Of a stretch of DNA of 64,000 nucleotides, positions 9,752-28,681 are shown piece after piece. How positions within the stretch are numbered: position 1 is the first letter of the stretch; each line of letters opens with the position of its first letter. Origin of the DNA: a virus (lineage: Duplodnaviria > Heunggongvirae > Uroviricota > Caudoviricetes); the IMG/VR virus record IMGVR_UViG_3300029969_000011; one strand, 5' to 3'. The position numbers were made by a program, and so were the translations under genes. The notes beneath the pieces were generated by a model. That model saw only the letters and a list, made by a program, of their open reading frames with translations. It was not told the origin of the DNA and searched no databases.

Positions 9752-10684
9752 TTATCTGCTCTTAAGCATATCTCTTACGTATGTCATTGTAAGGCTACCG
9801 CAAATCTTACCAAAGTTCTCGCAAGCTGCGACTACCTCTGGCTCCTCCTTACGGCAATCCTCATACATCATCTTAGGAAGTACCTTTGCGATTGCTCCCA
9901 TATCGTGCTCGTCCCAATCAGGTCTAAGCTGACCCTCATCGACAAGCTTCTGAAGACACTTCTCAGTTCTACGAGCAGTTGCAACACTTGCTATGTACTG
10001 TCTCTCAGCCTCTCTCTTCTTGAGCTCCTCTGGGTCTACAGGCTTGTGATGGTCCTGATGAACCTCGGAAAACTTCTCTGCGACAATCTTAAGGTATGAA
10101 GGAGTTCTGCTGTTCTTGTTGTCAAGTCTGTCCTGAGACTTAATAACGACGCCCTCACCACAAGGCTCTGCGCCGAGCATAGACTGACCTACAAGCTGGT
10201 AAACAGTATCCCAACCTCTGAACTCACCTGTGTAGAAGATAGGAACAAAGTAGATTACCTGCTGAGTAAGCTGTACTGCGTTCTCAAGTCCCTTGAAGAT
10301 TGCGTATGTGTCCTCGTGAGGGAGGTACTCCTCTGTCTGAGTATCCCATACGTCGAACATATAGAAGTTCTTGTATCTGTTCTCAGGGTACTTGATTGTA
10401 TGCTTTGTAAGCCACTCGCCGAAGATTACATATCTGCCGTGCTGTGTAAGCATATCAATCTGAGAAACGTTGAGCTGCTGTGCCCAGTTCCAGAAACCGT
10501 TGAGTGTGTTAGCCTCATTAAGCTGGTTCTTACGAGAAAACGCAAGAACAGTATTTGTTGTGGGGTCATATGTGAATGATGCATTTGAGCCGTCAACCTT
10601 CTCGGTAATCGTTACCTGCTCACCGAGTGAAAAGACGGTATCATACTTCTCCTTGAAACGCTCGATATCTACATACTTTTTCAT
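9752..10684 (-). CDS. ATP-dependent RNA ligase (T4 Rnl2-like)
   Basis: 310 aa; N-terminus MKKY...; nucleotidyltransferase motif I TEKVDGSN (KxDG); size and layout like Rnl2. Confidence 0.65.
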   Translation of the reverse strand: MKKYVDIERFKEKYDTVFSLGEQVTITEKVDGSNASFTYDPTTNTVLAFSRKNQLNEANTLNGFWNWAQQLNVSQIDMLTQHGRYVIFGEWLTKHTIKYPENRYKNFYMFDVWDTQTEEYLPHEDTYAIFKGLENAVQLTQQVIYFVPIFYTGEFRGWDTVYQLVGQSMLGAEPCGEGVVIKSQDRLDNKNSRTPSYLKIVAEKFSEVHQDHHKPVDPEELKKREAERQYIASVATARRTEKCLQKLVDEGQLRPDWDEHDMGAIAKVLPKMMYEDCRKEEPEVVAACENFGKICGSLTMTYVRDMLKSR

Positions 10685-10749
10685 TTCTTTTTACCTCTTT
10701 CTCATTTTCTATATATATTATATCATAAAATATAAAAAATGTCAAATTT

Positions 10750-11118
10750 TTATATGAATTTTCCGCCGTTAATTATTCTTAGGTCCTTGTATTCAGGGAG
10801 TTCGAGAAGTTCATCATCATTTATTGCTCGATAATAACCATTATTTGTAGGGAAACAAACAGCAGTTTTGTCACATACAAGTTTACCACAGATACGGCAT
10901 ATTCTACCAACGCAGAGTCCGTACCAGTCGTCATAGTTAATGAGAACTTTCTCATAGTCATGCTTATGGTTAGCTTTCTTAACCTTTTCTTTTACCTTCT
11001 TCTTACCTGTTGAAGGTTTATTTTGCGCCGCCTCACCATAAAAATTATTAAGAGAAGAGCGACTGCCGCCCTCTCCATCCCAACATTCATTTACCTTTCT
11101 GTAATCTCCCTTGCCCAT
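10750..11118 (-). CDS. Cys-rich hypothetical protein
   Basis: 122 aa; CVGRICRICGKLVCD. Confidence 0.4.
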   Translation of the reverse strand: MGKGDYRKVNECWDGEGGSRSSLNNFYGEAAQNKPSTGKKKVKEKVKKANHKHDYEKVLINYDDWYGLCVGRICRICGKLVCDKTAVCFPTNNGYYRAINDDELLELPEYKDLRIINGGKFI

Positions 11119-11341
11119 TAGCTACCTCCATATCTTTTCTTGTTTTCCGTGCCCACTTATTCCATTTTTCGATAGCTTCTTTGCTTGATTTTACATTGAT
11201 AACTTCATACATTTTAACTGACATTGGACAGTTATGTGTCCTGCATTTTATAATCCAGTAAAAGTATGAAGCCATTCCGATTATCTCTTCCTGCTTTTTA
11301 GAGATTGTCATTTCATTATCACAATAAGGACATCTTTCCAT
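11087..11341 (-). CDS. small zinc-ribbon protein
   Basis: CPYCDNE...C..HNC. Confidence 0.4.
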   Translation of the reverse strand: MERCPYCDNEMTISKKQEEIIGMASYFYWIIKCRTHNCPMSVKMYEVINVKSSKEAIEKWNKWARKTRKDMEVANGQGRLQKGK

Positions 11342-11631
11342 TACTTCGTCTCCTCAAAATCTTTTACACCGATGCCGATTAAATCTCCTATACCATAAAA
11401 GAGGTCATCGCCGTTAGAATGTAACGGAACGCCAAGGCATCTCTTATGCTTACCAACATTCGGCGGTCCCATATCTCTGACCTGTGACTCGAAACTTACT
11501 TTGTCAATAGTAAATTTTTCAGTAAAGACAAGTCCACAGCTTCGACATTTATAATAACGTGTACCGTCATAATACTTTTCTCTTCCCATTATGTCCTCCT
11601 TAATATACCAGACCAGAGTGACACATTCCAA
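11341..11631 (-). CDS. small zinc-binding hypothetical protein
   Basis: 96 aa; CRSCG. Confidence 0.4.
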   Translation of the reverse strand: MECVTLVWYIKEDIMGREKYYDGTRYYKCRSCGLVFTEKFTIDKVSFESQVRDMGPPNVGKHKRCLGVPLHSNGDDLFYGIGDLIGIGVKDFEETK

Positions 11632-13516: not shown

Positions 13517-14359
13517 TCACTGTACATTCTCATTCCTCCAGATTTCGTCGCTTAACGCACGCTTAATGATGAGGAATTTCTGCTCGTCCATACTGTCAAG
13601 AACAGACTGGTCAAAGTTTAGACCCTCTTCTCTGTACTTAGCGAGCCAAGCATCTGCCTCTTCAACGATACGCTTACCAAGGTCCTTAGCCTGAGCCGCA
13701 GAGTAGTTGATTTGTCTATCCTTAACACCAAGGATTTCACCCCAGTATCTCTGCATATTCAAGTCTGAACCCTTAAATGGGTTAAGAATGTACGCGTAGT
13801 CTTCCTGCTTAAATTTTGAAAGCATAGCAAGCAATCTCATTTCGTGAGAGAGCTGCTTTGAAGCATAACCGTACTTCTCGACTTCCTCGACCTGAACTGG
13901 ATAAGGGTGGTCAAGAGCATTAAACTTTTCCTTAATCTGACCGACAATAGCCTTTAATGCAGACTCTTCATTTGCGTGTGCAATAGCGTCCCTATTAAGA
14001 ATAAACCAGAACATAGGGCTGTAATCTGGATTTACCCAGAACCAGTCTGAGTAAAGAAGCTCAACAAAGTTTGAAGAACCCTTCTTCCACTGGTCAACGA
14101 TAAGACGAATGTCCTTAACATCGACCTGACCGTTGAAAGGCATTTCTTCAACATGGCTTACAGGCTTTGAGTTGAATACAATATCCCTCAGTGAAGGAAC
14201 GACAACTGCCTTGTAATCGTAGTCACTCTTAGGTCGTCTCAGATTGTAGTTCTGAGCACCGTATAGAGCGATAAAGATTACATTAAAACCTCTTTTCTGA
14301 AGCTCCCTGACTGCAACGTGCATAAGCTCCTCTTCTGGCATTATCACTTTCTCGTCCAT
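13517..14359 (-). CDS. Pol-beta-superfamily nucleotidyltransferase (NTP_transf_2-like)
   Basis: YGAQNYNLRRPKSDYDYKAVV matches the hG[GS]x9-13Dh[DE]h nucleotidyltransferase signature. Confidence 0.4.
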   Translation of the reverse strand: MDEKVIMPEEELMHVAVRELQKRGFNVIFIALYGAQNYNLRRPKSDYDYKAVVVPSLRDIVFNSKPVSHVEEMPFNGQVDVKDIRLIVDQWKKGSSNFVELLYSDWFWVNPDYSPMFWFILNRDAIAHANEESALKAIVGQIKEKFNALDHPYPVQVEEVEKYGYASKQLSHEMRLLAMLSKFKQEDYAYILNPFKGSDLNMQRYWGEILGVKDRQINYSAAQAKDLGKRIVEEADAWLAKYREEGLNFDQSVLDSMDEQKFLIIKRALSDEIWRNENVQ

Positions 14360-16346: not shown

Positions 16347-17828
16347 TTACTTCCAAGAATATACATCCTTAGAAAGTATCTTGACCATAGCCTCATAAGC
16401 ATTGCACTCGATGAGTTCTCTAAGGTCATTGAATGGACCTACACCAGAACCGCTGCAGTAACTGATGTTATCGTAGATAGTACCGATGTAGTTGTCCTGA
16501 CGTGCCTCAACATTCCAGCTTACGACCTTAGTCTCAGGGAGACCAGCCTCGCGAAGCTTCTTGTTCCACTTACCGACAATGGAGTCAGCAGTGTCTGGAC
16601 GTACGTCGTAGTCGAACTGACCGTCTGATATAACTACAAGAGCCTTTGGAACCTCGCGGGTTCTTACAGCAGTCTTATAGATAAGCTCGAAAGCCTTATC
16701 AAGGTTAGTGTTGTAACCCATGTCAGTTGACATTACCTTTCTAAGACACTCCTCAAGTCCCCAGCTATCCTCGAGGGATATGAAGTGAGGATTGTTAGTG
16801 AATGTCATATAAAGGTTGTGGTATGCACCCTTATTACGCTGAGCGAAGTAAGTTGCAAGACCAACAGAAGTTGCCATAGGCTGACCTAACATGGAGCCAG
16901 ATACATCTGCCATTACGACAACATCGTACTCTCCGCTAACGTAGTTAGGAAGAGCCTTCCACTGAGCTTCGTCTACAGGGTCAAGATGGTAACGAGAGCT
17001 ACCATACATATACTTGTACACGATGTCGTATGGGTAAAGAGTAGAAGCATTTACCTTAGCCTCGCCCTTTTCAAGGGAAGCCTTGTAAGCTGCAAATCTC
17101 TCCTGACAACGCTTGTTGTAAGTCTTGATATATCTGCTCATTGCAACAGATGGAACAGACTGGAAGTCTATCTCATCCCACTTACCAGCAGACATCTTTG
17201 TCTCGACGACGCCGATGTGTGCACGAAGCTTTGCAAGAGTCTTACGATATGTACGCTCGGTAAGACCGAGGTAACGACAAGCTCTACGACCAAGCTTACG
17301 AGTCTCCTGAGAAGAAGTATTGATAGATGGCATCCACTTAGCAAGGATGGAGATAGGCTGGTTCTTAGCCATACCCTCTGCATCAGCACGAAGCTGCTTG
17401 GAGATAAACTCCCATACCTTTGCCTCAATTACTGGATACTTTCCGTTAAGGAAGATGAAAAGGTCATCCCATCTACCTGTATCAACAATGGTCTGAAGAT
17501 TGCGGACAATCTTCTGAGGGTCGATACGACCGAGTTCTGCAAGCAGAATACGACCGATACGTCTCTCACCAAGACCACAGTCTCTGATGTTACGAGCGTA
17601 AAGGATAAGGTTATCTGCAAGAGTAGGGTTCTCCTGTCTTGCTGCCTTCCAATCGCTGATTATAGCGGAAGCATCTCTCTTTCTCATACCACCTATCTTT
17701 GCATAGATGTCAAGAAGAGCGCCGCCGTTTGTTGAACTATATGCGAGTCCACCGTTTTCGGTAAGTGTCTGATTAGCCATTGCCTTAGCTGCGTTTACGA
17801 AATTACTCATTACACATCTCTCCTTCAA
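16347..17828 (-). CDS. Ro60-like protein (TROVE-like helical N-terminal region + vWA domain)
   Basis: 493 aa; C-terminal vWA MIDAS VVVMADVSGSM (DxSxS); N-terminal ~300 aa helical region consistent with a TROVE module. Confidence 0.5.
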   Translation of the reverse strand: MKERCVMSNFVNAAKAMANQTLTENGGLAYSSTNGGALLDIYAKIGGMRKRDASAIISDWKAARQENPTLADNLILYARNIRDCGLGERRIGRILLAELGRIDPQKIVRNLQTIVDTGRWDDLFIFLNGKYPVIEAKVWEFISKQLRADAEGMAKNQPISILAKWMPSINTSSQETRKLGRRACRYLGLTERTYRKTLAKLRAHIGVVETKMSAGKWDEIDFQSVPSVAMSRYIKTYNKRCQERFAAYKASLEKGEAKVNASTLYPYDIVYKYMYGSSRYHLDPVDEAQWKALPNYVSGEYDVVVMADVSGSMLGQPMATSVGLATYFAQRNKGAYHNLYMTFTNNPHFISLEDSWGLEECLRKVMSTDMGYNTNLDKAFELIYKTAVRTREVPKALVVISDGQFDYDVRPDTADSIVGKWNKKLREAGLPETKVVSWNVEARQDNYIGTIYDNISYCSGSGVGPFNDLRELIECNAYEAMVKILSKDVYSWK

Positions 17829-18787: not shown

Positions 18788-18999
18788 ATTATCAAGATAC
18801 GTTTTTTTCTCGTGCCTCTGCCAATTGGGCTACTCCCCGATATGCTGCCCGAGACAGGAATCGAACCGTTACCCTCCGCCTTCTTCAGGCGGCGTGCACA
18901 CCTATGCACTACAAGGGCAGTCTGGTCGGGGAGGATGGGATTCGAACCCACACTCATCGTGCTCCTAACGCATTAATTGAGTAGCTGACGTATCTTTAT

Positions 19000-19075
19000 T
19001 GGTGCCGAGGGGGAGAGTCGAACTCCCTACGCCAAGCTCTTCAGGCTTGCGCTCTACCAGTTGAGCTACCTCGGC
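19000..19075 (-). tRNA. tRNA-Phe (GAA)
   Basis: Perfect cloverleaf: acceptor gccgagg/cctcggc, T-arm gggag-agtcgaa-ctccc, anticodon loop tcttcag (codon TTC), CCA encoded. Confidence 0.75.
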
Positions 19076-19208
19076 ATTATCAAGACAGTTATACTTATAA
19101 ACTCTACCCGTTGAGCTACGCGACGCGAACGCCACGGTGGGATTCGAACCCACATCCCCCTTTGTGCAAAAAAGAAAAAGTTTTAAGTGTTTTGCTGAAC
19201 TGCCTTAT

Positions 19209-19285: not shown

Positions 19286-19412
19286 ATATAAAATGCAAAA
19301 TATGAAGAGGATACCACACCCTGCAGAGGCCCATATTTATTTATATCCCGCACCATAAGCTTCTTCGCGCTTCAATCCGTCGACTGTCCTCATGGCCATC
19401 CGTGCGGTTTTC

Positions 19413-19488
19413 TGGGTGGAAAGATGAGATTCGAACTCACACCTTCATGGGCCACAACCATGCGCTCTACCATTAAGCTACTCACCAC
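19413..19488 (-). tRNA. tRNA-His (GTG)
   Basis: Anticodon loop gccacaa (codon CAC); extra 5' G-1 and C73 discriminator + CCA characteristic of tRNA-His. Confidence 0.7.
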
Positions 19489-19595
19489 ATCAATTCCGAC
19501 TTTAACCCAAGTCGGCAGGGTTAAATAAAACCAAATCTGCCTCCACACAGTGGAGTTAGCTGTAGACAATAGCACTGAACATAACTATTCCTACT

Positions 19596-19671
19596 TGGTC
19601 TCGGTTATAGGACTCGAACCTATGACTTTCTCCTTGTAAGGGAGACACTCTCGCCGCTGAGTTAAACCGAG
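19596..19671 (-). tRNA. tRNA-Val (TAC)
   Basis: Perfect acceptor ctcggtt/aaccgag, T-arm atagg-actcgaa-cctat, anticodon loop ttgtaag (codon GTA). Confidence 0.7.
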
Positions 19672-19698
19672 ATTATCAAGACTCTCTATACCTTGCGG

Positions 19699-19772
19699 TT
19701 CCGGAAGGGGGATTCGAACCCCCATATGTACGATTTTAGGTCGTATGACTTAGCCACTTTGTCTATTCTGGA
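19699..19772 (-). tRNA. tRNA-like, anticodon region TAA with irregular loop (C33?)
   Basis: T-arm ggggg-attcgaa-ccccc, acceptor tccggaa/ttctgga; anticodon stem tacga/tcgta with loop ttttagg. Confidence 0.35.
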
Positions 19773-19920
19773 AAGGAATATTGCTGAAGAGTCTTTATTT
19801 GGTTCGGGTATGCTTATCGGAGTCAAGTACTCGCAGTTCCTCTTTCGAGGTATTTTCTTCGGAGTAAAGACCTTAAGGTTCGCGTAACCTCTCGTGCCCT
19901 AACCCATATCCGAAACCCGA

Positions 19921-19997
19921 TGGTGCCGTTAGAGGGACTCGAACCCACACTAACCAGTTCCTAAGACTGGCGCCTCTGCCAATTGGGCTATAACGGC
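19921..19997 (-). tRNA. tRNA, anticodon TAG (Leu-type anticodon) with class I, Gln-like body
   Basis: Perfect acceptor gccgtta/taacggc + CCA, anticodon stem ccagt/actgg loop tcctaag (codon CTA), 5-nt variable loop, 3-bp D-stem. Confidence 0.5.
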
Positions 19998-20061
19998 ATT
20001 GTTAAACAGTTCGAGTTACGGTCAAACTGAAGGTAAGCACCGATTAAGCAGCCAGATACTC

Positions 20062-20292
20062 CTATTCAGAATAATCAAGCTTTTCAATTCTTTTCATATC
20101 GGAATATGTAACCTGCTTCCAACCACTCTTAGGGTGGTTAAAGGCACACATCCAGCAGGAACAATGAATTTTACCTTTGGCTAACTTTCCGTCGCAATCA
20201 CAAAACCAATGATGAGTTTCATCAATGATATGTCTTTTGCGAGCTATGTGTTGTCTTCTCTGATAACGATAGTATGCTCTATCTCTTTCCAT
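20062..20292 (-). CDS. Arg-rich zinc-finger protein inside the tRNA array
   Basis: 76 aa; basic N-terminus, HxxxC...CxC...CxxC cluster. Confidence 0.4.
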   Translation of the reverse strand: MERDRAYYRYQRRQHIARKRHIIDETHHWFCDCDGKLAKGKIHCSCWMCAFNHPKSGWKQVTYSDMKRIEKLDYSE

Positions 20293-20432
20293 TGTGCCGC
20301 CCTCCGAAAAATTATAATAACGAATATAGGCAACCCACTACTTACTTTCCTTACCAGCGTAAATTAAGCACCTTCGCTACGTATTGCTACTACCTCAGTA
20401 TTTAATTTACTATGCCCTTCCCTCGATATTCG

Positions 20433-20975
20433 TTACTTAGTAATTCTGTTTGCGATACCAGAAGCAGCGTAGCTGTCTGGCTTGATAGCAACCTCGAAGC
20501 CGCAAGTCTTAATCCAAGAGGTAATCTCAGTAATAAGCTGATTTGTCTTACCTGCGTGACCAATGTCAGCGTGGACAGCGAAAGTAAATCTTCCGTCATT
20601 AGACATTTGCTCAAGGTCAATATCATAGTCGATAAGAGCATAAGCAAGAGCATCTACGAAACCTGTTGCGTTCTCAATAGAACGAGAAGTCTCTTCCTGT
20701 ATCTTAGTCTTAAGAACTCTTATCTTTGGTATATCTTGCTTGCGATAGAAGAAAATGCCGCCATCACCGATACGGTGAACAGCAATTACTTCCACCATTC
20801 TTGTGCACTTGTGGTTCTGGCTATCTGTACCCACAGTTATTTCGTATGAGGCGTTAGGTGCCTTTGCGATGTAGTCGGCTACAATAGAGCCTATCTGTGA
20901 ATAACGAACCTTCTCACCATTACCACGAGTAAATATCTTCTCGGTAATCACGGTTAATCTCTCCTTTATATTCAA
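20433..20975 (-). CDS. YkuK/DUF458-like RNase H-fold protein
   Basis: 180 aa; VGTDSQ and AVHADIGH motifs resemble the GTDSQ/HADSN signatures of the YkuK family. Confidence 0.4.
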   Translation of the reverse strand: MNIKERLTVITEKIFTRGNGEKVRYSQIGSIVADYIAKAPNASYEITVGTDSQNHKCTRMVEVIAVHRIGDGGIFFYRKQDIPKIRVLKTKIQEETSRSIENATGFVDALAYALIDYDIDLEQMSNDGRFTFAVHADIGHAGKTNQLITEITSWIKTCGFEVAIKPDSYAASGIANRITK

Positions 20976-21107
20976 ATATTCAAGACAGTTATGTTAGCTA
21001 CCTTTTGATTAAAATTCAAATGCTTTTAAAGAATTGCTGGACTGTCTTAGTGGTGATAATACGTGCCGCGGCACCACAGACCGCTATATGTGGTCGCACG
21101 TATTCTC

Positions 21108-21194
21108 TGGTCGGCTCGGTGGGACTCGAACCCACACGCCCTTGCGGGCACCAGCTCCTTAGGCTGGCGCGTCTGCCAATTCCGCCACGAGCCG
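21108..21194 (-). tRNA. tRNA-Leu (anticodon AAG), class II
   Basis: 87 nt; perfect acceptor cggctcg/cgagccg + CCA; long variable arm gccc-ttg-cgggc; anticodon loop tccttag (codon CTT). Confidence 0.55.
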
Positions 21195-21262
21195 ATTTAT
21201 CAAGACTCATCTTGTGTTTTTATATGCCCAAAAAACTTTCAGAGTTGCTGCTGAGTCTTATC

Positions 21263-21339
21263 TGGTCGGAGATGCGGGACTCGAACCCACGGCCTCTCGC
21301 TCCCAAGGCGAGCGCTCTACCAAACTGAGCTAATCCCCG
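21263..21339 (-). tRNA. tRNA-Pro (TGG)
   Basis: Anticodon stem ctcgc/gcgag, loop tcccaag (codon CCA); D-arm gctc-taccaaact-gagc; CCA encoded. Confidence 0.65.
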
Positions 21340-21409
21340 ATTAATTGGCGGCTTCAGGGACGCTACAAGATAACCAACCGCCAGAGTTATCACGCACTTA
21401 ATGTCCCAA

Positions 21410-21486
21410 TGGTCGGCGAGATGGGATTCGAACCCACACTGAATGGATTTTAAGTCCATTGCCTCTGCCTGTTGCGCTACTCGCCG
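21410..21486 (-). tRNA. tRNA, anticodon TAA (Leu-type anticodon) with class I body
   Basis: Perfect acceptor cggcgag/ctcgccg + CCA; anticodon stem atgga/tccat loop ttttaag (codon TTA); 5-nt variable loop. Confidence 0.5.
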
Positions 21487-21606
21487 ATAAGCCTATTAAA
21501 TAGGCTACAAGATATAACCCCTTTTACCGCGGGGCAGTCTCCCCAATATAATTGGTTGGGGAGATAGGAATTGAACCTACAAAAGTGAGTTGCTGATATA
21601 TCTTAG

Positions 21607-21683
21607 TGGTCACGCCAGCGAGGCTCGAACTCGCATTTTAGCCTTGAAAGAGCTACTTCCTACACCTGTTAGAAGATGGCGCG
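21607..21683 (-). tRNA. tRNA-Glu (TTC)
   Basis: T-arm gcgag-gctcgaa-ctcgc, anticodon loop ttgaaag (codon GAA), CCA encoded. Confidence 0.6.
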
Positions 21684-21835
21684 ATTCATCAAGATGTGCT
21701 TTTACCTCTCATGAGGATTTGAACCTTACCGTCCCCTTTTTGGGGCTGTGCTACCAGATTACACCATAACGCCGAGAGGATTTAAAATGGCGGCGTTAAA
21801 AACTTTAAAGAAAAAGTTGCTGACACATCTTTATT

Positions 21836-21909
21836 TGGTTGCGCAGACAGGACTCGAACCTATATCAACGGATAATGACTCCGTTATGCTACCTTTGCAC
21901 TACCGCGCG
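21836..21909 (-). tRNA. initiator tRNA-fMet (CAT)
   Basis: Anticodon loop taatgac (anticodon CAT); 5' CGCGCGG / 3' CTGCGCAACCA with C1·A72 mismatch, as in bacterial initiator tRNA. Confidence 0.6.
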
Positions 21910-22760
21910 TTCTCTTTATTTTCTATAATTATTATAGCATAAATTATAAAAAATGTCAAATTTTTGATTTCTAAGTCATTTCGTAAGCACTCTCACCGCG
22001 TGAAGGTAGACTTAATTGAGAGTATTTCTTCAACAATCTTGGGTGCCGCCACATCTCCTGCACACAGGAGACAGGGTACTCGAACCCCTCCATCGCCAGT
22101 TGCTGAAAGGAATTTCAACCTAATCTCATTAGTTATAAAGCCACTGAGCTGTAGCTATGCGAATAATTTGCCGCAATCAACGGGCGACTATTCTAATCGC
22201 CGTCATAACCAACACAAGTTATGAACCATTGTAATGTCGTCAGGTTCCCACACTTACGCAGTAAACGCGCCGCTTAACCACTTGGTTTAGGTATGTTCAT
22301 AACCAAGAAATTTTCCCTTTTACATCGTCAGCAGTAGATGTCGTAATTTTATCGGTACTTCCCCGAATGGACATTGCGTGCCTATCGTACTCACGGTAAT
22401 GTACGTAACCGCTGCCGTGCCAGCCAATACACGGATTTATACTGCCATCACACAGTCGGGCAGGTCTGTGATGGGTCTCTGCCCAATTTGGTTTTTGTGG
22501 TTTTAAACAGTCCAATGAGTAAACCTCAACTCAACTGTAGAGAATATTTGGTGGTTCGCTCTCTCTCAGCGAAGGTGTAAAGGGAGTTTAAACCACTTCC
22601 TCGTGGGGTTTTAACGTCTTTTCCTTGACAAGTCTCGCCGCAACCAGTACCATTTAAGGTACGCCAATCACTACGGGTTGCACATCCTTACTTTACCTGC
22701 CCAACAGGTCGGCGGTTGGACCCGCCAGTGTCCCTTTTATTCTCTTTAAGTAATTGGCAA

Positions 22761-22835
22761 TGGTGTGGGATAGGAGAATCGAACTCCCACCGCCTGTTTG
22801 GAAGACAGGAATACTGACCGTTATACGAATCCCAC
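22761..22835 (-). tRNA. tRNA-Gly (TCC)
   Basis: Perfect acceptor gtgggat/atcccac + CCA; anticodon stem cctgt/acagg, loop ttggaag (codon GGA). Confidence 0.65.
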
Positions 22836-23045
22836 ATTAGTTCTTATTTTTAAGTATAATTTATTATAACATATTCTAAGAAAAAAGTCAAATTTTTAAT
22901 AGTGATTGTCTTTGTAGGGGTCTGTCTTCTTCTTATCATGGGTTGCGGCGATGATGTCTGGCATAACCTCTATGAGCTTCCAAAGAAGTACGGTTACGCA
23001 AACAACTATTAGGTACTGCATCAGACAGACCTCCTTTCAAGACAT

Positions 23046-23120
23046 TGGTTTCTCCGCTTGGATTCGAACCAAGGAATGGCAGTTTTAGAGACTGCTGTCT
23101 TAAGCCTCTTGACGACGGAG
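23046..23120 (-). tRNA. suppressor tRNA, anticodon CTA (reads TAG); tRNA-Gln-like body
   Basis: Perfect acceptor ttctccg/cggagaa + CCA; T-arm cttgg-attcgaa-ccaag; anticodon stem gcagt/actgc, loop tttagag = C-U-CUA-A-A; 3-bp D-stem, variable loop CATTC as in E. coli tRNA-Gln. Confidence 0.7.
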
Positions 23121-23125
23121 AATTA

Positions 23126-23201
23126 TGGTTGCCGCTCTGGGAATCGAACCCAGTAAGACGGAGTTAGAGTCCGTTGTCCTCGCCAACTAAACGAAGCGGC
23201 A
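23126..23201 (-). tRNA. second suppressor tRNA, anticodon CTA (reads TAG)
   Basis: Perfect acceptor tgccgct/agcggca + CCA; T-arm ctggg-aatcgaa-cccag; anticodon stem acgga/tccgt, loop gttagag (anticodon CUA); 3-bp D-stem. Confidence 0.65.
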
Positions 23202-23342
23202 AAATTCTCCAAGACGCCTTTACATTTACCTTTTAAACATTTTAAGTGTTCTATTGTAAGAAATGATTGCAGGATGCGTCTTTCATTCTTATAAAATAAT
23301 TATAACATATTTTATAAAAATTGTCAAATTTTTGAGTGCTTA

Positions 23343-23606
23343 TTAGTCTACAGCAGTTGTAGTAGTTGTCTCTGTTGTAGTCTCTTCTGCCTCAGTTTCT
23401 GTGGTAGTAGTTGTTTCTTCGGTAGCCTCAGTTGTCTCCTCTGCTACTGTTGTAGCTTCAGTTGTTTCAGCTTCTGTTGTTTCAACTTCTGTTGTAACTA
23501 CTGTTGTGGTTTCACTGTTGCTTCCGCTATCCTTTGATGTATCGCAAGAAACAAAAGTTACAGCCATAGCGCCTGCCATAAGACAAGCTAAAATAGCCTT
23601 CTTCAT
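23343..23606 (-). CDS. small secreted lipoprotein, Thr/Glu-rich
   Basis: 87 aa; signal peptide + TFVSC lipobox-like; (ETT)n low-complexity tail; located inside tRNA array. Confidence 0.45.
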   Translation of the reverse strand: MKKAILACLMAGAMAVTFVSCDTSKDSGSNSETTTVVTTEVETTEAETTEATTVAEETTEATEETTTTTETEAEETTTETTTTTAVD

Positions 23607-23949
23607 TGTGTTTCACCTCTTTGCTTTTTAAATAAGAACCCTTGCTTGTATATCGAAACCTCGTATTATATCCACAGTCACATCGTGATTTACTCCCACA
23701 CAAGAGGGCTACCATGGAGAAGGGGCACGCCCCGAGATGGGCGGCAATAATCATAGAACGCTATACGAAAAGCATAACGTACTAAGGAACTCTTTCCACA
23801 CGTGGTGGATGAGCTATCGTATTTCTACGACCCCGCACAGCGGGTAGAAGTCATAATGACCTCTTAACAGTAATTTTGATTGAGCCGCGTTTCCTCTTTT
23901 AAGTCTGACTAACTGCGGTAAAAAATCCAGACTTCAAAATTACTTTTAA

Positions 23950-24043
23950 GAAATCATTATGGCGCGGTCGGGGAGACTCGAACTCCCACACCGATTGCTC
24001 GATTACTCATAGTTTAGCAAACTACTGCCTTACCAAATTAGGC
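23950..24043 (-). tRNA. tRNA-Ser (GCT), class II
   Basis: CCA + G73; perfect acceptor gcggtcg/cgaccgc; long variable region; anticodon loop ttagcaa (codon AGC). Confidence 0.5.
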
Positions 24044-24188
24044 TTACGACCGCATTATCAAGATACGTTTTTTCGATATACGTTGTTCTACCAGTTGAAC
24101 TACTCCGCCATATTGGCGACGGAGGCAGGACTTGAACCTACACCTACGGCGTGATAGGCAATCTATTGCTTGCTGACGTATCTTAGTT

Positions 24189-24266
24189 TGGTGTGCCTGA
24201 TGGGACTCGAACCCATGACCCCCTGATTAAAAGTCAGGTGTTCTATGCCAACTGAACTACAGGCAC
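24189..24266 (-). tRNA. tRNA-Lys (TTT)
   Basis: Perfect cloverleaf; acceptor gtgcctg/caggcac; anticodon loop ttaaaag (codon AAA). Confidence 0.75.
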
Positions 24267-24366
24267 ATTAACATCCGCTGAGCATCTTATTGGAACGCTT
24301 TCACCATGCGAGACCTCTATTGTTTATTTGCTGGCAGAATTTGAACCATTAACCATAGCGAATATT

Positions 24367-24442
24367 TGGTGGGACGCCTGAGATTCGAACTCAGATAAGC
24401 TCGGTTATGAGCCGAGTGCACTAACCATTGTACTAACGTCCC
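24367..24442 (-). tRNA. elongator tRNA-Met (CAT) or tRNA-Ile2 (CAT, lysidine)
   Basis: T-arm ctgag-attcgaa-ctcag; anticodon stem ctcgg/ccgag, loop ttatgag (anticodon CAT). Confidence 0.6.
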
Positions 24443-24490
24443 ATTAAAGAAAGGAAAGGGGCATACTTTCAAGATGGCTATGCCAGACCA

Positions 24491-24564
24491 CTAAGTTATT
24501 GGCTTCGGCAAAGGGAGTCGAACCCCTATCAACAGAGCCAAAATCTGTTGTCCTACCATTAGAC
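24491..24564 (-). tRNA. tRNA-Gln (TTG)
   Basis: G73 + CCA; anticodon stem acaga/tctgt, loop gccaaaa (codon CAA); 3-bp D-stem GTC/GAC. Confidence 0.65.
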
Positions 24565-24601
24565 GATACCGAAATCTATGGAGTCATAAAGACTCCAAAT
24601 A

Positions 24602-24961: not shown

Positions 24962-25006
24962 TTTCTCACCTCACTATAAATATTATATCATATTTTATTT
25001 AAAAAG

Positions 25007-26407: not shown

Positions 26408-26500
26408 ATATTTCCTCCCGTTTGATTTTCTATAAATATTATATAATAATATTTTTAAAAAGTCAAATTTTTAATCATAATATTCCGTTGCAAATTTATC

Positions 26501-27064
26501 CTATTCATTTTCCAGCCACTCTTTTGTCTGTGCTTTATGGATATAATCCAGCACTTCATTACAAATACGAGTGTATCCTTCTTCAGTACCGTCCATTATC
26601 CAGTAGTAAATATCGTGGCTTTCAAGGAATTTCTTTATTCTGACATCAATCTCTTTCGCTTCTTCCTCTGTCTGATTCCTGCCAACAGGATTGTAAGGCT
26701 TTTTTCGATTGATAAAAAAGTTAATGTTATCATAAGTATTAAACACATCCATTACTAAATGTTCGTAGTGCGGGCCCAAGACTGGGTTCTGATTATAAAA
26801 TACGCCGAGCGGCAATGGGCTATCTGTGATGATAACATCCACCTGGTCGCGGCACCTGTCCATTTTATAGGACTGTTTACCGAAAACATATTCCTGACAT
26901 CTTAATGCTGAATAGTTCTTCTCCCAAGTTTTATCCTTAGCAAACTCAGTTATCAACTCGCAATTAACACCTTTCATCTTTAATTGACTAAAAATAAAAG
27001 CTGCCGCCGTAGACTTTCCTGCACCGGGGCCTGCAAATAAGTTTATGACTATTGGCTTCTTCAT
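26501..27064 (-). CDS. P-loop NTPase / nucleotide kinase-like protein
   Basis: 187 aa; Walker A FAGPGAGKST. Confidence 0.5.
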   Translation of the reverse strand: MKKPIVINLFAGPGAGKSTAAAFIFSQLKMKGVNCELITEFAKDKTWEKNYSALRCQEYVFGKQSYKMDRCRDQVDVIITDSPLPLGVFYNQNPVLGPHYEHLVMDVFNTYDNINFFINRKKPYNPVGRNQTEEEAKEIDVRIKKFLESHDIYYWIMDGTEEGYTRICNEVLDYIHKAQTKEWLENE

Positions 27065-27162
27065 TGGCTTTCCCTCCTTTCTGATTATATAAATATTATA
27101 TCACAGAAAAAATAAAAAGTCAAGAAAAAGAAAGAGGGATTCTTCCGAACCCCTCAAAGCTA

Positions 27163-27657
27163 TTAACCAGTAATAGCTTCCTCTATACCACCTGGTGTAG
27201 TCTCAACTTCGTCATCAAGCTCATCAGCAAGCTCTTTAATCTGAGCCTGAATGAGTCCACGCTGATGTTCAAGTATTGTCTTGACTGTTGCAGCATAGCT
27301 GCCGTCTGCCCAGTCCTTAATCTCCGCGTCAATATTACCAAAGTTAAAGCTTGTATCGCCAACCTTAATAATGACATCCTTCTTCTTTGTTTCAAGGTTC
27401 TCAAGCATACGATTAATCATCGCAGCCTTCTTAGAGAGCTTGCAAATCTGTGCTTCCTTACTGTTCTTTCCTGGCTCTGGCTCAGGTTCTGGCTGAGGAG
27501 GGAAAGGAGGGAAAGGAGGAGGAGGACATGGAGGAACTGGAGGGAATGGATAATCTGGTGGCATTGGAGGGAATGGAGGGCAAGCTGGTCCTAAGTACAT
27601 ACCAACGTCGCCGCACTTACAGCCGTTCTTTTTAGAATAATCTGGATACTGATACAT
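27163..27657 (-). CDS. proline-rich hypothetical protein
   Basis: 164 aa; PPFPPMPPDYPFPPVPPCPPPPFPPFPPQPEPEPEP tract. Confidence 0.4.
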   Translation of the reverse strand: MYQYPDYSKKNGCKCGDVGMYLGPACPPFPPMPPDYPFPPVPPCPPPPFPPFPPQPEPEPEPGKNSKEAQICKLSKKAAMINRMLENLETKKKDVIIKVGDTSFNFGNIDAEIKDWADGSYAATVKTILEHQRGLIQAQIKELADELDDEVETTPGGIEEAITG

Positions 27658-27775
27658 ATCAGAGTTCTAAGGCTTATCAATATTTGGCATTAAAATTCCC
27701 CCTATAAATAAATTAGGGTATCCGAAGATACCCTTCTTATATAAGGTAAAAATTGCCTTTGGGAATTATAATCTT

Positions 27776-28681
27776 TTAGTGCGCCGCCTTATCAGCTTCG
27801 TGAAGACGCTCAAGGTCACGCATAAAGTCTGCACTATAACGAGCTGCCATCTTCTCCATATACTTCTCGCCCTTGTAGTGGTCCATATGGTGGTTGATTA
27901 AAAGAACGATATAGTGATTACGGTCAGAGCAACCAGTATGAGATAAGTAGAAGTATGCTCCTACATTCTCATGGTTATAGAAGTGTGCCTCTTCTGTAGG
28001 GTTGTTGCGAGCGTCGTGATAAACCTTGCAGTAAGGCTTACCAATATCGTGGAAGAGTGCCGCAGTTCTTACTAAGTCAGAACGAGTTGAGTCTCTTACT
28101 GTCTTATTCATCTCGTCAACGATATACTTCTCTGCCGCTCTCATATGTGCGCCGATAGTTAAAGAGTGGTGATGATTATCGTGAGGGATATTATCAGCTT
28201 CGAAAAGCATTTCTCCTATTACATCGAAGTTATTATCATTACCGAAAGTCATTATCTTATCCCAACCCTCAGAGTAGTCAGGTACCTCGAAGCTTCTAAG
28301 CATACGGTCGAGAACGAACTCAGGAACGACACGCTCACGGGAAGCATTACGCTCCTTTACAACCTCGAAAGGAGGTACGCAAAGAACGCATATCTTTACA
28401 AGGTCAGGTATCTTAGATAACTCCTTTAAGAAGCCTATACGACGCTTAGCATTGACGTTTGTTGCGTCATAGTAAACATCGACATTAGCCTTTAAAAGGT
28501 CGCGAGTACGAGTTAACATTAAGTTGAATACTTCTGCGTTATGAGTCTGGTCATTAACGTCTCCAAATACGTCCTGCCGTATCTGGTCAGAAGATACATA
28601 AGCTGCTTCAGAGAAGTAAGCCTTATATAAAGTAGACTTACCAGAGCCAGGGAGTCCTACAGTGAAAAATAATCTTGGCAT
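27776..28681 (-). CDS. polynucleotide 5'-kinase (T4 Pnk-like) fused to an HD-domain phosphohydrolase
   Basis: N-terminus LFFTVGLPGSGKST plus downstream kinase region resembling T4 Pnkp; C-terminus HHHSLTIGAHM...LFHDIGK = HD motifs; start ATG 28681 with AAGGAGA RBS. Confidence 0.6.
   Translation of the reverse strand: MPRLFFTVGLPGSGKSTLYKAYFSEAAYVSSDQIRQDVFGDVNDQTHNAEVFNLMLTRTRDLLKANVDVYYDATNVNAKRRIGFLKELSKIPDLVKICVLCVPPFEVVKERNASRERVVPEFVLDRMLRSFEVPDYSEGWDKIMTFGNDNNFDVIGEMLFEADNIPHDNHHHSLTIGAHMRAAEKYIVDEMNKTVRDSTRSDLVRTAALFHDIGKPYCKVYHDARNNPTEEAHFYNHENVGAYFYLSHTGCSDRNHYIVLLINHHMDHYKGEKYMEKMAARYSADFMRDLERLHEADKAAH

What the first reader, a model, noticed from the sequence alone, without database searches (positions are those of the whole stretch)
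9752..28681. Phage-encoded RNA/tRNA repair toolkit
The toolkit comprises:
- an Rnl2-like RNA ligase (9752-10684);
- a T4-Pnk-like polynucleotide kinase fused to an HD phosphohydrolase instead of the usual HAD phosphatase (27776-28681);
- a Pol-beta nucleotidyltransferase (13517-14359);
- two calcineurin-like phosphoesterases (6780-7349, 32105-32815);
- RNase H (58542-59048);
- the large tRNA set.

This mirrors the T4 Pnkp + Rnl healing/sealing pathway that counters host anticodon nucleases (PrrC, RloC, colicin-like). The kinase–HD fusion is an unusual domain architecture for end healing.
Basis: partly seen in the sequence, partly recalled or inferred. Interest (0 to 1): 0.6.

Follow-up and report, generated by a model that had tools for sequence, protein, structure and literature searches.

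The report
Phage RNA end-healing and sealing kit
A large uncultivated phage carries the enzymes needed to mend cut RNA (a kinase-phosphoesterase fusion, a nucleotide-adding enzyme and an RNA ligase) beside its own tRNA genes. Such kits are already described for big phages, but this kinase-HD enzyme has not, as far as I can find, been tested biochemically.

Summary
In detail: every ORF named exists and carries the stated domain. Three of them form a real module. These are a polynucleotide-kinase–HD fusion (27776-28699), an Rnl2/Rnl5-like RNA ligase (9752-10684) and a divergent RlaP-like nucleotidyltransferase (13517-14359).

- **Catalytic residues:** intact and invariant across each family.
- **Linkage:** the genes lie 3-17 kb apart here, but relatives in phages and Bacillota carry the same three as overlapping or adjacent cassettes.
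- **Metallophos_2 protein (6780-7424):** tied in, because relatives fuse it to the RlaP-like enzyme.
- **RNase H (58542-59048):** belongs to a + strand replication operon with a DNA ligase.
- **Second phosphoesterase (32105-32815):** role unresolved.
- **Kinase–HD architecture:** not rare (at least 375 protein clusters, Tsamsa-like Bacillus phages, Bacillota genomes). Its reversed-order cousin HD-Pnk is characterised.
- **Prior description:** the kit concept is published for jumbo phages (Iyer et al. 2021).

- a Ro-like DUF2828–VWA protein;
- a covarying family of Y-RNA-like (YrlA-like) RNAs inside the tRNA array;
- amber (TAG) recoding of late genes, served by two tRNA(CUA) genes, which gives part of the tRNA set a second job.

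Verdict: a new member of a known kind, of moderate interest.

The parts
27776..28699 (-). Pnk-HD: an N-terminal P-loop 5'-OH polynucleotide kinase fused to a C-terminal HD (HDIG-type) phosphoesterase. This is the end-healing enzyme. The start may be Met7 at 28681.
9752..10684 (-). ATP-dependent RNA ligase: an Rnl2/Rnl5-like nucleotidyltransferase domain followed by an Rnl2-style all-helical C-terminal domain. This is the sealing enzyme.
   Evidence: PF09414 at 8e-28 and phrog_548. Motif residues K29, D31, G32, R51, E90, F107, D111, E177, G178, K182 and K199 are invariant in 45 homologues. The best Foldseek match is full-length T4 Rnl2 (2HVR, 5.6e-9), followed by NgrRnl. The family profile hits NgrRnl at 7e-7 and T4 Rnl2 at 8.6e-7.
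13517..14359 (-). Divergent RlaP-like Pol-beta nucleotidyltransferase. Its predicted role is to add 1-2 nucleotides to a 3'-OH end before ligation.
   Evidence: PF10127 at 17.6 bits, below the cut-off, and phrog_388 at 1e-11. 20 of 37 relatives hit RlaP. G34, S45, D46, D48 and D83 are invariant. The gene lies directly upstream of Pnk-HD in 7 of 46 phage clusters and sits in three-gene cassettes.
6780..7424 (-). Metallophos_2 (calcineurin-like) phosphoesterase, a probable accessory 3'-end or cyclic-phosphate esterase. The likely start is 7349.
   Evidence: PF12850 and phrog_547 at 1e-45. P0296 and P0336 are fusions of the RlaP-like enzyme to a Metallophos_2 domain that is 31% identical (3e-24) to this protein.
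16347..17828 (-). DUF2828 plus VWA(MIDAS) protein, annotated 'Ro-like RNA-binding protein' in mycobacteriophages. It is a candidate RNA-binding partner.
   Evidence: PF11443, PF25043 and VWA; phrog_850 at 1e-113. 707 phage records carry a homologue. It lies within 10 kb of Pnk-HD in 19 of 46 clusters. Homology to TROVE was not shown.
18844..24573 (-). Array of 19 tRNA genes, interrupted by an RNaseH_like (PF04308) gene at 20433-20975.
   Evidence: ARAGORN, Rfam tRNA hits and Pfam.
19076..19211 (-). YrlA-like (Y-RNA-like) structured RNA, copy 1. It has a 10-bp closing stem, a T-arm, a 7-bp acceptor-like stem with a UUCG loop, and a D-arm. It sits flush between tRNA-Leu(CAA) and tRNA-Phe.
   Evidence: Rfam YrlA at 31 bits, below threshold. 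The purpose-built model R1 scores 158.7 bits. Covariation supports the structure.
24054..24189 (-). YrlA-like RNA, copy 2, between tRNA-Lys and tRNA-Ser.
   Evidence: Rfam YrlA match over the full model at 33.4 bits, against a gathering score of 69. R1 scores 96 bits. The closing stem differs from copy 1 by compensatory changes.
18788..19001 (-). YrlA-like RNA, copy 3. Its acceptor-like stem is split by CCA plus a nested weak tRNA-like gene (18844-18919).
   Evidence: R1 scores 58.8 bits. The sequence was read directly. The element is 94% identical in L001, with compensatory changes.
23046..23201 (-). Two tandem tRNA(CUA) amber suppressors. They serve TAG recoding rather than repair.
   Evidence: ARAGORN and Rfam. 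In-frame TAG codons fill the late genes.
32105..32815 (-). Metallophos phosphoesterase. Its membership of the kit is unresolved; it is syntenic only.
   Evidence: PF00149 and phrog_1649. It lies 3-4 kb upstream of Pnk-HD in 14 of 46 clusters. No fusion or adjacency to a ligase or RlaP was found.

Best explanation
The window is part of a large, uncultivated, TAG-recoded tailed phage. Its - strand auxiliary region carries a dispersed RNA end-healing and sealing module.

1. The C-terminal HD domain of Pnk-HD opens and removes the 3'-terminal phosphate.
2. The N-terminal P-loop kinase phosphorylates the 5'-OH.
3. The RlaP-like nucleotidyltransferase restores one or two nucleotides if the 3' end was trimmed.
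4. The Rnl2/Rnl5-like ATP-dependent ligase seals the 3'-OH/5'-PO4 break.

The Metallophos_2 esterase probably assists 3'-end cleaning. The adjacent tRNA array supplies replacement tRNAs, plus two amber suppressors for the phage's own code. The Ro-like DUF2828-VWA protein and the YrlA-like RNAs may form an RNA-handling particle beside the module.

**Shown here:** the domains, the conserved catalytic residues, the folds, and the gene linkage in relatives.

**Inferred:** the substrates, the activities of the HD domain on RNA ends, the order of the steps, and the purpose (countering host anticodon nucleases).
For: **Kinase.** The residues essential in CthPnk are K21, S22, D38 and R41, with T80 and the lid arginines R116, R120 and R123 contributing (PMC3902929). 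All have equivalents in this protein; those listed under Parts are invariant in 50 homologues and R123 is nearly so. The fold matches polynucleotide kinases first.

**HD domain.** The full H..HD..H..H..D ligand set is invariant. It passes the HDIG model. Its nearest relatives are the HD regions of CCA/A-adding enzymes.

**Ligase.** The lysine nucleophile motif KxDG and motifs Ia, III, IIIa, IV and V are invariant. The best structural match is full-length T4 Rnl2. A separate DNA ligase exists at 59702-60832.

**Linkage.**
- L084 carries overlapping ORFs in the order ligase, Pnk-HD, RlaP-like.
- Lysinibacillus (L121) has ligase, RlaP-like, Pnk-HD; L112 has Pnk-HD, ligase, RlaP-like.
- An Rnl1-type ligase abuts Pnk-HD in 12 of 43 cellular loci and in Tsamsa-like Bacillus phages, with a 4-nt overlap.
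- RlaP-like is directly adjacent to Pnk-HD in 7 of 46 phage clusters.
- Relatives fuse RlaP-like to Metallophos_2.

**Literature.**
- Jumbo-phage RNA repair kits: tRNAs, Rnl1/Rnl2, Pnk, a phosphoesterase that is usually HAD but rarely HD or calcineurin-like, RlaP, and ROT/TROVE (PMC7824862).
- RlaP adds 1-2 NMPs to damaged RNA 3' ends (PMC12776372).
- Runella HD-Pnk is a bifunctional end-healing enzyme encoded next to a ligase (PMC6097658).
Against: - In this window the three core genes are not an operon. They are spread over 19 kb among many small unknown ORFs.
- The ligase is Rnl2/Rnl5-like, a type that seals nicks. It is not the Rnl1 type that T4 uses to repair anticodon loops, and no Rnl1 or RtcB gene is in the 64 kb.
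- The RlaP assignment is below Pfam's threshold for this protein.
- No host is known and no anticodon nuclease can be named.
- No activity was measured.
- HD-Pnk and the Rnl5-type ligase of Deinococcus are linked to resistance to DNA damage (titles cited in PMC6300522), so the substrate could be DNA or an RNA-DNA hybrid.
Confidence: 0.7

Rival explanations
1. The module heals and seals DNA or RNA-DNA hybrid breaks rather than tRNA. Examples are DNA ends with 3'-phosphate and 5'-OH left by host nucleases, or ribonucleotide-containing nicks during replication.
For: Polynucleotide kinases of this family accept DNA; CthPnk was crystallised with DNA oligonucleotides. Runella HD-Pnk is described as a DNA/RNA end-healing enzyme. 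Deinococcus HD-Pnk and its nick-sealing RNA ligase contribute to resistance to radiation and mitomycin (titles). The ligase resembles the nick-sealing types Rnl2 and Rnl5.
Against: The phage has a separate ATP-dependent DNA ligase and RNase H in a replication operon. The module's conserved partners act on RNA: RlaP, which adds ribonucleotides to RNA, and Rnl1-type 'tRNA ligases'. It lies beside the tRNA array and a Ro-like protein.
Confidence: 0.15
2. The enzymes mature the phage's own RNAs rather than repair host-inflicted damage. They might join, circularise or trim the YrlA-like or split tRNA-like RNAs, or other products of the tRNA array.
For: Three YrlA-like RNAs lie flush between tRNAs. 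RNase P and RNase Z would release them with 5'-phosphate and 3'-OH ends held together by a 10-bp stem. Copy 3 is laid out like a permuted or split tRNA-like gene with an internal CCA. The RNAs, the DUF2828 protein and Pnk-HD co-occur in several divergent phages.
Against: Many loci with the ligase/Pnk-HD/RlaP cassette, including bacterial ones, have no such RNA or DUF2828 gene nearby. Ends produced by RNase P and RNase Z need no kinase or phosphoesterase. The junction sequence formed by the two ends is not conserved.
Confidence: 0.1
3. The genes are unrelated accessory genes that merely share an accessory-gene region, and there is no common pathway.
For: In the window they are 3-17 kb apart and are interspersed with NAD-related, ADP-ribose-related and unknown genes.
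Against: Overlapping three-gene cassettes and a domain fusion recur in distant phages and bacteria.
Confidence: 0.05

Closest known systems
Bacteriophage T4 Pnkp plus Rnl1 tRNA repair pathway (counter to the PrrC anticodon nuclease)
   Same: The logic is the same: a 5'-OH kinase plus a 3'-phosphoesterase in one polypeptide, an ATP-dependent RNA ligase, and a phage-encoded RlaP (T4 NrdC.11). The kinase fold and the catalytic Asp/Arg/P-loop residues are shared.
   Different: The phosphoesterase is an HD domain, not the DxDxT (HAD) domain. The ligase is Rnl2/Rnl5-like, not Rnl1. The genes are dispersed.
HD-Pnk of Runella slithyformis and Deinococcus radiodurans (Munir & Shuman 2017; Schmier & Shuman 2018), encoded next to a ligase
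   Same: The same two catalytic domains, HD phosphoesterase and Pnk kinase, in one protein. Relatives of the window protein show the same genetic association with an ATP-dependent ligase.
   Different: The domain order is reversed here: kinase N-terminal, HD C-terminal. PHROG 6931, which has the kinase at its C-terminal end, matches in two separate stretches. No Tpt1 or methyltransferase-HIT partner is present. This one is phage-borne.
Jumbo-phage RNA repair systems catalogued by Iyer, Anantharaman, Krishnan, Burroughs and Aravind 2021 (PMC7824862)
   Same: [quoted passage not shown]
   Different: This phage has no close relative in the isolate phage collection searched (INPHARED GenBank records). 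It is TAG-recoded. It carries YrlA-like RNAs inside the tRNA array.
Pnk-HD plus RNA ligase genes of Tsamsa-like Bacillus phages (Joanripponvirinae, e.g. Izhevsk gp154-155 and gp162)
   Same: A full-length Pnk-HD homologue at 28-32% identity, and a homologue of the Rnl2-like ligase at about 36% identity, lie in one region.
   Different: In those phages an Rnl1-type 'tRNA ligase' overlaps Pnk-HD by 4 nt. The window has no Rnl1-type gene. As far as I could find, none of these proteins has been characterised biochemically.
Bacterial Ro60 (Rsr) with YrlA Y RNA (Chen et al. 2014, PMC4201824)
   Same: The RNA has a closing stem and a permuted tRNA-like domain in the order T-arm, acceptor-like stem, D-arm. 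It is encoded on the same strand, 1.25 kb from a protein with a VWA/MIDAS domain that is annotated Ro-like.
   Different: Rfam YrlA scores are 31-33 bits against a gathering score of 69. The protein matches DUF2828, not Pfam TROVE. hhalign against Ro60 aligns only the VWA part. The RNAs are embedded in a tRNA array, and one copy is split by a nested tRNA.

Membership tests
P-loop 5'-OH polynucleotide kinase (T4 Pnk / CthPnk type) | P-loop GxxGxGK[ST] with the essential Lys and Ser | tested here: met
   The sequence 15-GLPGSGKST-23 is present. G15, G20 and K21 are invariant in 50 homologues.
P-loop 5'-OH polynucleotide kinase (T4 Pnk / CthPnk type) | General-base Asp with its orienting Arg, the phosphodiester-anchoring Thr, and the lid arginines | tested here: met
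   D38, R41, T80 and R121 are invariant; R123 is nearly invariant; R117 aligns with CthPnk R116.
P-loop 5'-OH polynucleotide kinase (T4 Pnk / CthPnk type) | The fold is closest to known polynucleotide kinases | tested here: met
P-loop 5'-OH polynucleotide kinase (T4 Pnk / CthPnk type) | Phosphorylates 5'-OH RNA or DNA ends | not testable with these tools
   This needs a biochemical assay.
T4-type Pnkp (kinase plus DxDxT/HAD 3'-phosphatase) | C-terminal HAD (DxDxT) phosphatase domain | tested here: not met
   The C-terminal half is an HD domain (Pfam HD and NCBIfam HDIG). There is no HAD match.
HD-Pnk (Runella / Deinococcus type) | HD phosphoesterase and Pnk kinase in one polypeptide | tested here: met
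HD-Pnk (Runella / Deinococcus type) | HD domain N-terminal and kinase C-terminal | tested here: not met
   The kinase spans residues 8-150 and the HD domain about 170-307. phrog_6931 aligns the kinase to its profile positions 183-338 of 343.
HD-Pnk (Runella / Deinococcus type) | Encoded next to an ATP-dependent polynucleotide ligase | tested here: inconclusive
   Not adjacent in the window; the ligase is 17 kb away. It is adjacent or overlapping in relatives.
HD phosphohydrolase superfamily | The H...HD...D metal-ligand motif (here the extended H, HD, H, H, D set) | tested here: met
Rnl2 family RNA ligase (T4 Rnl2) | Nucleotidyltransferase motifs I (KxDG), Ia, III, IIIa, IV and V | tested here: met
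   K29-x-D31-G32, R51, E90, F107/D111, E177-G178...K182 and K199 are invariant. Only one lysine is conserved in motif V.
Rnl2 family RNA ligase (T4 Rnl2) | All-helical C-terminal domain after the nucleotidyltransferase domain, with no OB domain | tested here: met
   The model has helices from 218 to 309. Foldseek aligns 352 columns to full-length T4 Rnl2. NCBIfam Rnl2 aligns residues 16-308 to model positions 18-318 of 326.
Rnl2 family RNA ligase (T4 Rnl2) | Scores as a family member with the curated equivalog model | tested here: not met
   TIGR02307 scores 33 bits against a cut-off of 197. TIGR02306 (the DraRnl type) scores 39 bits against 151. The family profile is equally distant from NgrRnl and T4 Rnl2.
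Rnl5 family (DraRnl / NgrRnl) | N-terminal OB-like domain before the nucleotidyltransferase domain | tested here: not met
   The nucleotidyltransferase domain starts at about residue 20, so there is no room for an N-terminal domain.
ATP-dependent DNA ligase | DNA_ligase_A_M adenylation domain with a C-terminal OB domain | tested here: not met
   There is no DNA-ligase Pfam hit for 9752-10684. The phage's DNA ligase is a different gene, 59702-60832.
RlaP (PF10127) | Score above Pfam's gathering threshold | tested here: not met
   17.6 bits against a threshold of 23 for the window protein. 20 of 37 relatives match at E<=0.01, the best at 4e-7.
RlaP (PF10127) | Pol-beta active site G[SA]...DxD plus a third carboxylate | tested here: met
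   G34, S45-D46-x-D48 and D83 are invariant in 37 sequences.
RlaP (PF10127) | Gene neighbourhood with RNA ligases and RNA repair genes | tested here: met
   Adjacent to Pnk-HD and/or a ligase in L084, L112, L121, L123 and seven phage clusters.
Ro60 / TROVE | TROVE (HEAT-repeat ring) domain | tested here: inconclusive
   No Pfam TROVE hit for the window protein or for the Faith1 'Ro-like' homologue. hhalign of the family against human Ro60 aligns only the VWA part, with probability 7.5%.
Ro60 / TROVE | C-terminal VWA domain with a MIDAS motif (DxSxS) | tested here: met
   D308-x-S310-x-S312 is invariant.
YrlA Y RNA (RF02553) | Score at or above Rfam's gathering threshold | tested here: not met
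   33.4 and 31 bits against a threshold of 69.
YrlA Y RNA (RF02553) | Closing stem enclosing a tRNA-like domain in the order T-arm, acceptor-like stem, D-arm | tested here: met
   On 21 distinct sequences, 94.5% of cells are paired and 22 of 26 pairs show double changes. The covariation score is 0.637, against 0.219 when shuffled and at most 0.088 when slid.
YrlA Y RNA (RF02553) | Encoded within about 4 kb of the Ro-type gene, on the same strand | tested here: met
   Copy 1 is 1.25 kb upstream. In L006, L007, L009, L021, L054 and L078 the RNA is 0.1-2.6 kb upstream on the same strand. It is also always inside a tRNA array, so the two associations cannot be separated.

The most novel reading that the evidence does not exclude
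The DUF2828-VWA protein and the tRNA-array-embedded YrlA-like RNAs, including the split copy with an internal CCA and a nested tRNA, form a phage Ro/Y-RNA-type particle. This particle would work with the ligase, Pnk-HD and RlaP enzymes in one of two ways: as a scaffold that presents damaged tRNAs for repair, or as a permuted or split tRNA-like RNA that the phage's own ligase matures. That would be a virus-encoded RNA-protein machine for tRNA quality control in a genetic-code-recoded phage.
Probability: 0.15. Interest if true: 0.75.

Novelty: new member of a known kind. Interest (0 to 1): 0.4.

Why it matters
RNA repair is one of the ways large phages survive host defences that cut tRNAs. This window adds a clean, uncultivated example.

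- **End-healing enzyme.** It is a kinase-HD fusion, the mirror image of the characterised HD-Pnk. Its family is large: at least 375 protein clusters, 321 viral contigs, and some Bacillota genomes. It therefore offers a well-defined, untested enzyme family for biochemistry.
- **Test bed for RlaP and Rnl2-type ligases.** The recurrent ligase/Pnk-HD/RlaP cassettes give a compact system for asking what RlaP and Rnl2-type ligases do in phages. That question is still open even for T4 Rnl2.
- **The more interesting by-products.** One is a covarying Y-RNA-like RNA family sitting inside phage tRNA arrays next to a 'Ro-like' protein. The other is the fact that all of this occurs in an amber-recoded phage, which depends unusually heavily on its own tRNAs.

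Tried and rejected
- **Close relatives.** Megablast of 20 kb against isolate phages found only a tRNA match, so no close cultured relative exists.
- **Source contig.** Exact-sequence look-ups of the Pnk-HD protein with either start found no source contig.
- **RlaP-like protein against PDB.** Neither the single sequence nor the family profile gave a hit, so the PfRlaP structure could not be used.
- **TROVE homology of DUF2828.** Pfam shows no TROVE on the window protein or on mycobacteriophage Faith1 gp55. PDB phmmer gives only a weak VWA match. hhalign against human Ro60 aligns only the VWA part. The result is inconclusive.
- **Faith1 locus.** It has no YrlA-like RNA by Rfam, so the RNA-protein link is not general to all DUF2828 phages.
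- **Other ligases.** A search for an Rnl1-type ligase in the window found none. No ORF that was scanned matched RtcB.
- **Faith1 metallophosphoesterase.** It is not homologous to the window's.
- **A functional circularly permuted tRNA.** I considered this reading for the YrlA-like RNAs and rejected it as the main one. The connector is 35-40 nt long, the closing stem is 10 bp, and the end junction is not conserved, so it does not fit a tRNA.
- **Papers not held.** Munir & Shuman 2017, Schmier & Shuman 2018 and Burroughs & Aravind 2016 were not in the library. What I say about them rests on citing papers and on my own knowledge.

Full report
**What the window is.** Genes run on the - strand up to about 57 kb and on the + strand after that. 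No cultured phage is close: megablast of 20 kb hits only a tRNA. The proteins do have hundreds of metagenomic relatives on contigs of 50-230 kb. 321 IMG/VR viral contigs encode a relative of the kinase-HD protein. Tail-fibre-like and endolysin genes lie at 40.7-56.4 kb. 'Phage-encoded' is therefore well supported.

**Check of the observation.**
- RNA_ligase at 9752-10684;
- a Pol-beta nucleotidyltransferase at 13517-14359, whose only Pfam hit is RlaP at 17.6 bits, below the cut-off of 23;
- Metallophos_2 at 6780-7424;
- Metallophos at 32105-32815;
- RNase H at 58542-59048.

Nineteen tRNA genes lie at 18844-24573.

The residues shown to be essential in CthPnk are P-loop K21 and S22, general base D38 and R41. 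T80 and the lid arginines also contribute (PMC3902929). The same residues sit at the same positions here, and K21, D38, R41, T80 and R121 are invariant across the family.

The C-terminal half is an HD domain with the full ligand set H178, H217-D218, H243, H271 and D303 invariant. It passes NCBIfam's HDIG model. Its nearest relatives by sequence and by fold are the HD regions of CCA/A-adding enzymes. From my own knowledge, the E. coli member of that group has 2',3'-cyclic phosphodiesterase and phosphatase activity. No solved structure spans both halves of the protein (TM-score normalised to the query is at most 0.42).

- At least 375 protein clusters are full-length homologues.
- About 40 GenBank genomes of Tsamsa-like Bacillus phages carry it at 28-32% identity, annotated 'polynucleotide kinase' or 'HD-domain protein'.
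- So do about 45 genome assemblies, mostly Bacillota, including isolates of Acetivibrio, Cytobacillus, Lysinibacillus, Virgibacillus and Roseburia.

The reverse arrangement, HD-Pnk, has been characterised in Runella as a bifunctional end-healing enzyme encoded next to a ligase (PMC6097658). PHROG 6931 appears to hold that order, because the window's kinase aligns to its C-terminal half. Iyer et al. 2021 already note that a few jumbo phages use HD or calcineurin-like domains in place of the usual HAD phosphatase (PMC7824862). I found no biochemical study of the kinase-first order.

**The ligase.** Motifs I (K29-x-D31-G32), Ia (R51), III (E90), IIIa (F107, D111), IV (E177-G178...K182) and V (K199) are invariant in 45 homologues. 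The model (pLDDT 87.8) has a nucleotidyltransferase domain followed by a helical domain at 218-309.

Foldseek ranks full-length T4 Rnl2 first (5.6e-9, 352 aligned columns). The Naegleria Rnl5 nucleotidyltransferase domain comes next, and DNA ligases are far lower. A family profile hits NgrRnl and T4 Rnl2 equally, at about 8e-7. NCBIfam's Rnl2 and DraRnl equivalog models both match far below their cut-offs.

So this is an RNA ligase with Rnl2-like architecture from its own clade (phrog_548, common in Herelleviridae-type and Bacillus phages). It is not an Rnl2 orthologue, and it is not the Rnl1 type that T4 uses on anticodon loops.

**The nucleotidyltransferase.** The Pol-beta signature (G34, S45-D46-x-D48, D83) is invariant. 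20 of 37 relatives hit RlaP at E<=0.01 and no other family competes. RlaP enzymes add one or two NMPs to damaged RNA 3' ends, and T4 has one, NrdC.11 (PMC12776372).

**Linkage.** This is the strongest evidence that the three genes work together. In the window they are 3-17 kb apart, but elsewhere they are neighbours.

Among phage contigs:
- L084 has overlapping ORFs in the order ligase (7736-8647), Pnk-HD (8647-9519), RlaP-like (9494-10333).
- Among 46 de-replicated phage clusters, RlaP-like lies within 10 kb of Pnk-HD in 13 and directly abuts it in 7.
- A ligase lies within 10 kb in 13 of those clusters, and the DUF2828 protein in 19.

Among bacterial assemblies and isolate phages:
- Lysinibacillus has ligase, RlaP-like, Pnk-HD in a row, and L112 has Pnk-HD, ligase, RlaP-like.
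- An Rnl1-type ligase abuts Pnk-HD in 12 of 43 bacterial loci.
- In Bacillus phage Izhevsk the 'tRNA ligase' overlaps Pnk-HD by 4 nt, and the Rnl2-like homologue lies 3.5 kb downstream.

Closer relatives of the window keep its dispersed order: Metallophos, Pnk-HD, AAA_28, the tRNA array with RNaseH_like, then DUF2828.

**The other listed parts.**
- The Metallophos_2 protein (6780-7424) is tied to the module by a fusion. P0296 and P0336 are RlaP-like proteins with a C-terminal Metallophos_2 domain that is 31% identical (3e-24) to it.
- The Metallophos protein at 32105-32815 is only syntenic (14 of 46 clusters). I leave its role open.
- RNase H lies on the other strand, in a run with a dNMP-kinase-like gene and the DNA ligase. 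It is best read as a replication gene.

The gene at 16347-17828, beside the tRNA array, encodes a DUF2828 plus VWA/MIDAS protein. It matches phrog_850 'RNA-binding protein' at 1e-113. Homologues occur in 707 phage records and are called 'Ro-like RNA-binding protein' in mycobacteriophages. I could not confirm TROVE homology.

A permissive Rfam scan gave two sub-threshold YrlA hits, at 24056-24168 and 19101-19157 (31-33 bits against a gathering score of 69).
- The two 135-nt gaps between tRNAs share one design: a 10-bp closing stem, a T-arm, a 7-bp acceptor-like stem capped by a loop, and a D-arm.
- Their closing stems differ by compensatory changes.
- A covariance model built from them finds full-length copies in eleven related loci, on the same strand as the DUF2828 gene and, in all but L077, 0.1-2.6 kb upstream of it.
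- On 21 distinct sequences, 94.5% of cells pair and 22 of 26 pairs show double changes. The covariation score is 0.637, against 0.219 when shuffled and at most 0.088 when slid. The alignment is fitted to the model, which flatters these numbers.
- The RNAs always sit flush between tRNAs, so RNase P and RNase Z would release them.
- A third copy (18788-19001) has its acceptor-like stem interrupted by CCA and a nested weak tRNA. It is 94% identical in a phage whose proteins are about 60% identical, with compensatory changes. I cannot explain this layout.

If TAG is read as sense, the short ORFs at 40.7-56.4 kb on the - strand merge into frames of 381, 1184, 712, 1129, 431, 228 and 881 codons. Each holds 3-18 in-frame TAGs and all end in TAA. 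Reading TGA or TAA as sense has no such effect. The Amidase_2 match of the endolysin spans two TAG positions. The gene next to the RlaP-like gene has two TAGs that are conserved in a relative, with the protein sequence conserved across them. Two tandem tRNA(CUA) genes lie at 23046-23201. This phenomenon is already known in gut phages. It means part of the 'large tRNA set' serves the phage's own code. The repair genes themselves contain no in-frame TAG.

**Mechanism and rivals.** The best-supported reading is healing and sealing of broken RNA: the HD domain removes the 3' phosphate, Pnk adds the 5' phosphate, RlaP restores lost nucleotides and the ligase seals. tRNA is the likely substrate, given the partners and the location (confidence 0.7). 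The purpose, defeating host anticodon nucleases, is inference only.

A DNA or hybrid-repair role (0.15) is kept alive by the Deinococcus HD-Pnk and Rnl work and by the nick-sealing type of the ligase. Maturation of the phage's own YrlA-like RNAs (0.1) is speculative. Coincidental co-location (0.05) is disfavoured by the cassettes and the fusion.

**Novelty.** This is a new member of a known kind. The parts list matches published jumbo-phage RNA repair systems. The kinase-first HD fusion is an uncharacterised but widespread family. The YrlA-like RNA family and its split copy are the most original leads.

Noticed in passing
window 40704-56419 (-), also 12121-13551, 33254-34285 and 36201-37136 (-): TAG (amber) is read as sense. 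Late genes (tail-fibre-like, an Amidase_2 endolysin and large structural ORFs) carry 3-18 in-frame TAGs each and all end in TAA. Under the standard code they break into short ORFs. The early and auxiliary genes, including the repair genes, are TAG-free.
   Followed up: yes
window 23046-23122 and 23126-23201 (-): Two tandem tRNA genes with a CUA anticodon (ARAGORN labels them 'Pyl'). They are amber suppressors that match the TAG recoding. The amino acid they insert was not determined.
   Followed up: partly
window 19076-19211 and 24054-24189 (-); L001, L002, L005-L009, L021, L022, L054, L056, L077, L078: A family of RNAs of about 135 nt lying between tRNA genes, with a closing stem and a permuted tRNA-like domain (YrlA-like). 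It shows strong covariation and, in most of these loci, lies within about 0.1-2.6 kb of the DUF2828-VWA gene on the same strand.
   Followed up: yes
window 18788-19001 (-); L001 19330-19544; L005 5401-5613: A variant of that RNA in which the acceptor-like stem is split by CCA plus a nested weak tRNA-like gene. The layout resembles a permuted or split tRNA-like gene. It is 94% conserved across phages whose proteins are about 60% identical. Unexplained.
   Followed up: partly
window 18844-18919, 19209-19285, 19697-19772, 19921-19997 and 21410-21486 (-): Five tRNAs with leucine anticodons (AAG, CAA, UAA, UAG, UAA) are only 76-77 nt long and lack the long variable arm normal for bacterial tRNA-Leu. 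Only the 87-nt tRNA at 21108-21194 has it.
   Followed up: no
window 18700-18787 (-): An extra tRNA-like element with a long variable arm that ARAGORN did not call. Rfam tRNA-Sec scores 43.2 bits against a gathering score of 47, and the tRNA model scores 21.5 bits. It is conserved in L005.
   Followed up: partly
window 14424-14939, 25970-26407, 26501-27064 and 28684-28908 (-): ADP-ribose and NAD-related genes are interleaved with the repair genes. They are a DarG-like macrodomain (NCBIfam 5e-15), a NADAR domain, an AAA_28 (NadR-like) kinase, and a 74-aa ORF whose homologue in L001 weakly matches an NMN transporter. Together they look like a counter-defence island.
   Followed up: partly
P0296 and P0336 (relatives of window 13517-14359): Natural fusions of the RlaP-like nucleotidyltransferase to a Metallophos_2 phosphoesterase that is homologous to window 6780-7424.
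   Followed up: yes
window 12121-13551 (-): A protein of about 470 aa with unknown function, two in-frame TAGs and a methionine-rich C-terminal tail. Its gene overlaps the 3' end of the RlaP-like gene. It has no Pfam or PHROG match and is conserved in L005.
   Followed up: partly
window 16216-16263 (-): A sub-threshold match to Rfam '6A' RNA (36.5 bits against a gathering score of 41.2), just 3' of the DUF2828 gene. It recurs at the same place in L005 and may simply be a terminator hairpin.
   Followed up: no
window 17901-18455 and 20433-20975 (-): A short radical-SAM-like protein lies between the tRNA array and the DUF2828 gene. An RNaseH_like (PF04308) protein lies inside the tRNA array. Both are syntenic in relatives and their functions are unknown.
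   Followed up: no
window 7579-9156 and 39451-40446 (-): An SPFH/flotillin-like protein of 525 aa and a GH113 glycoside hydrolase. Both are unusual phage cargo.
   Followed up: no
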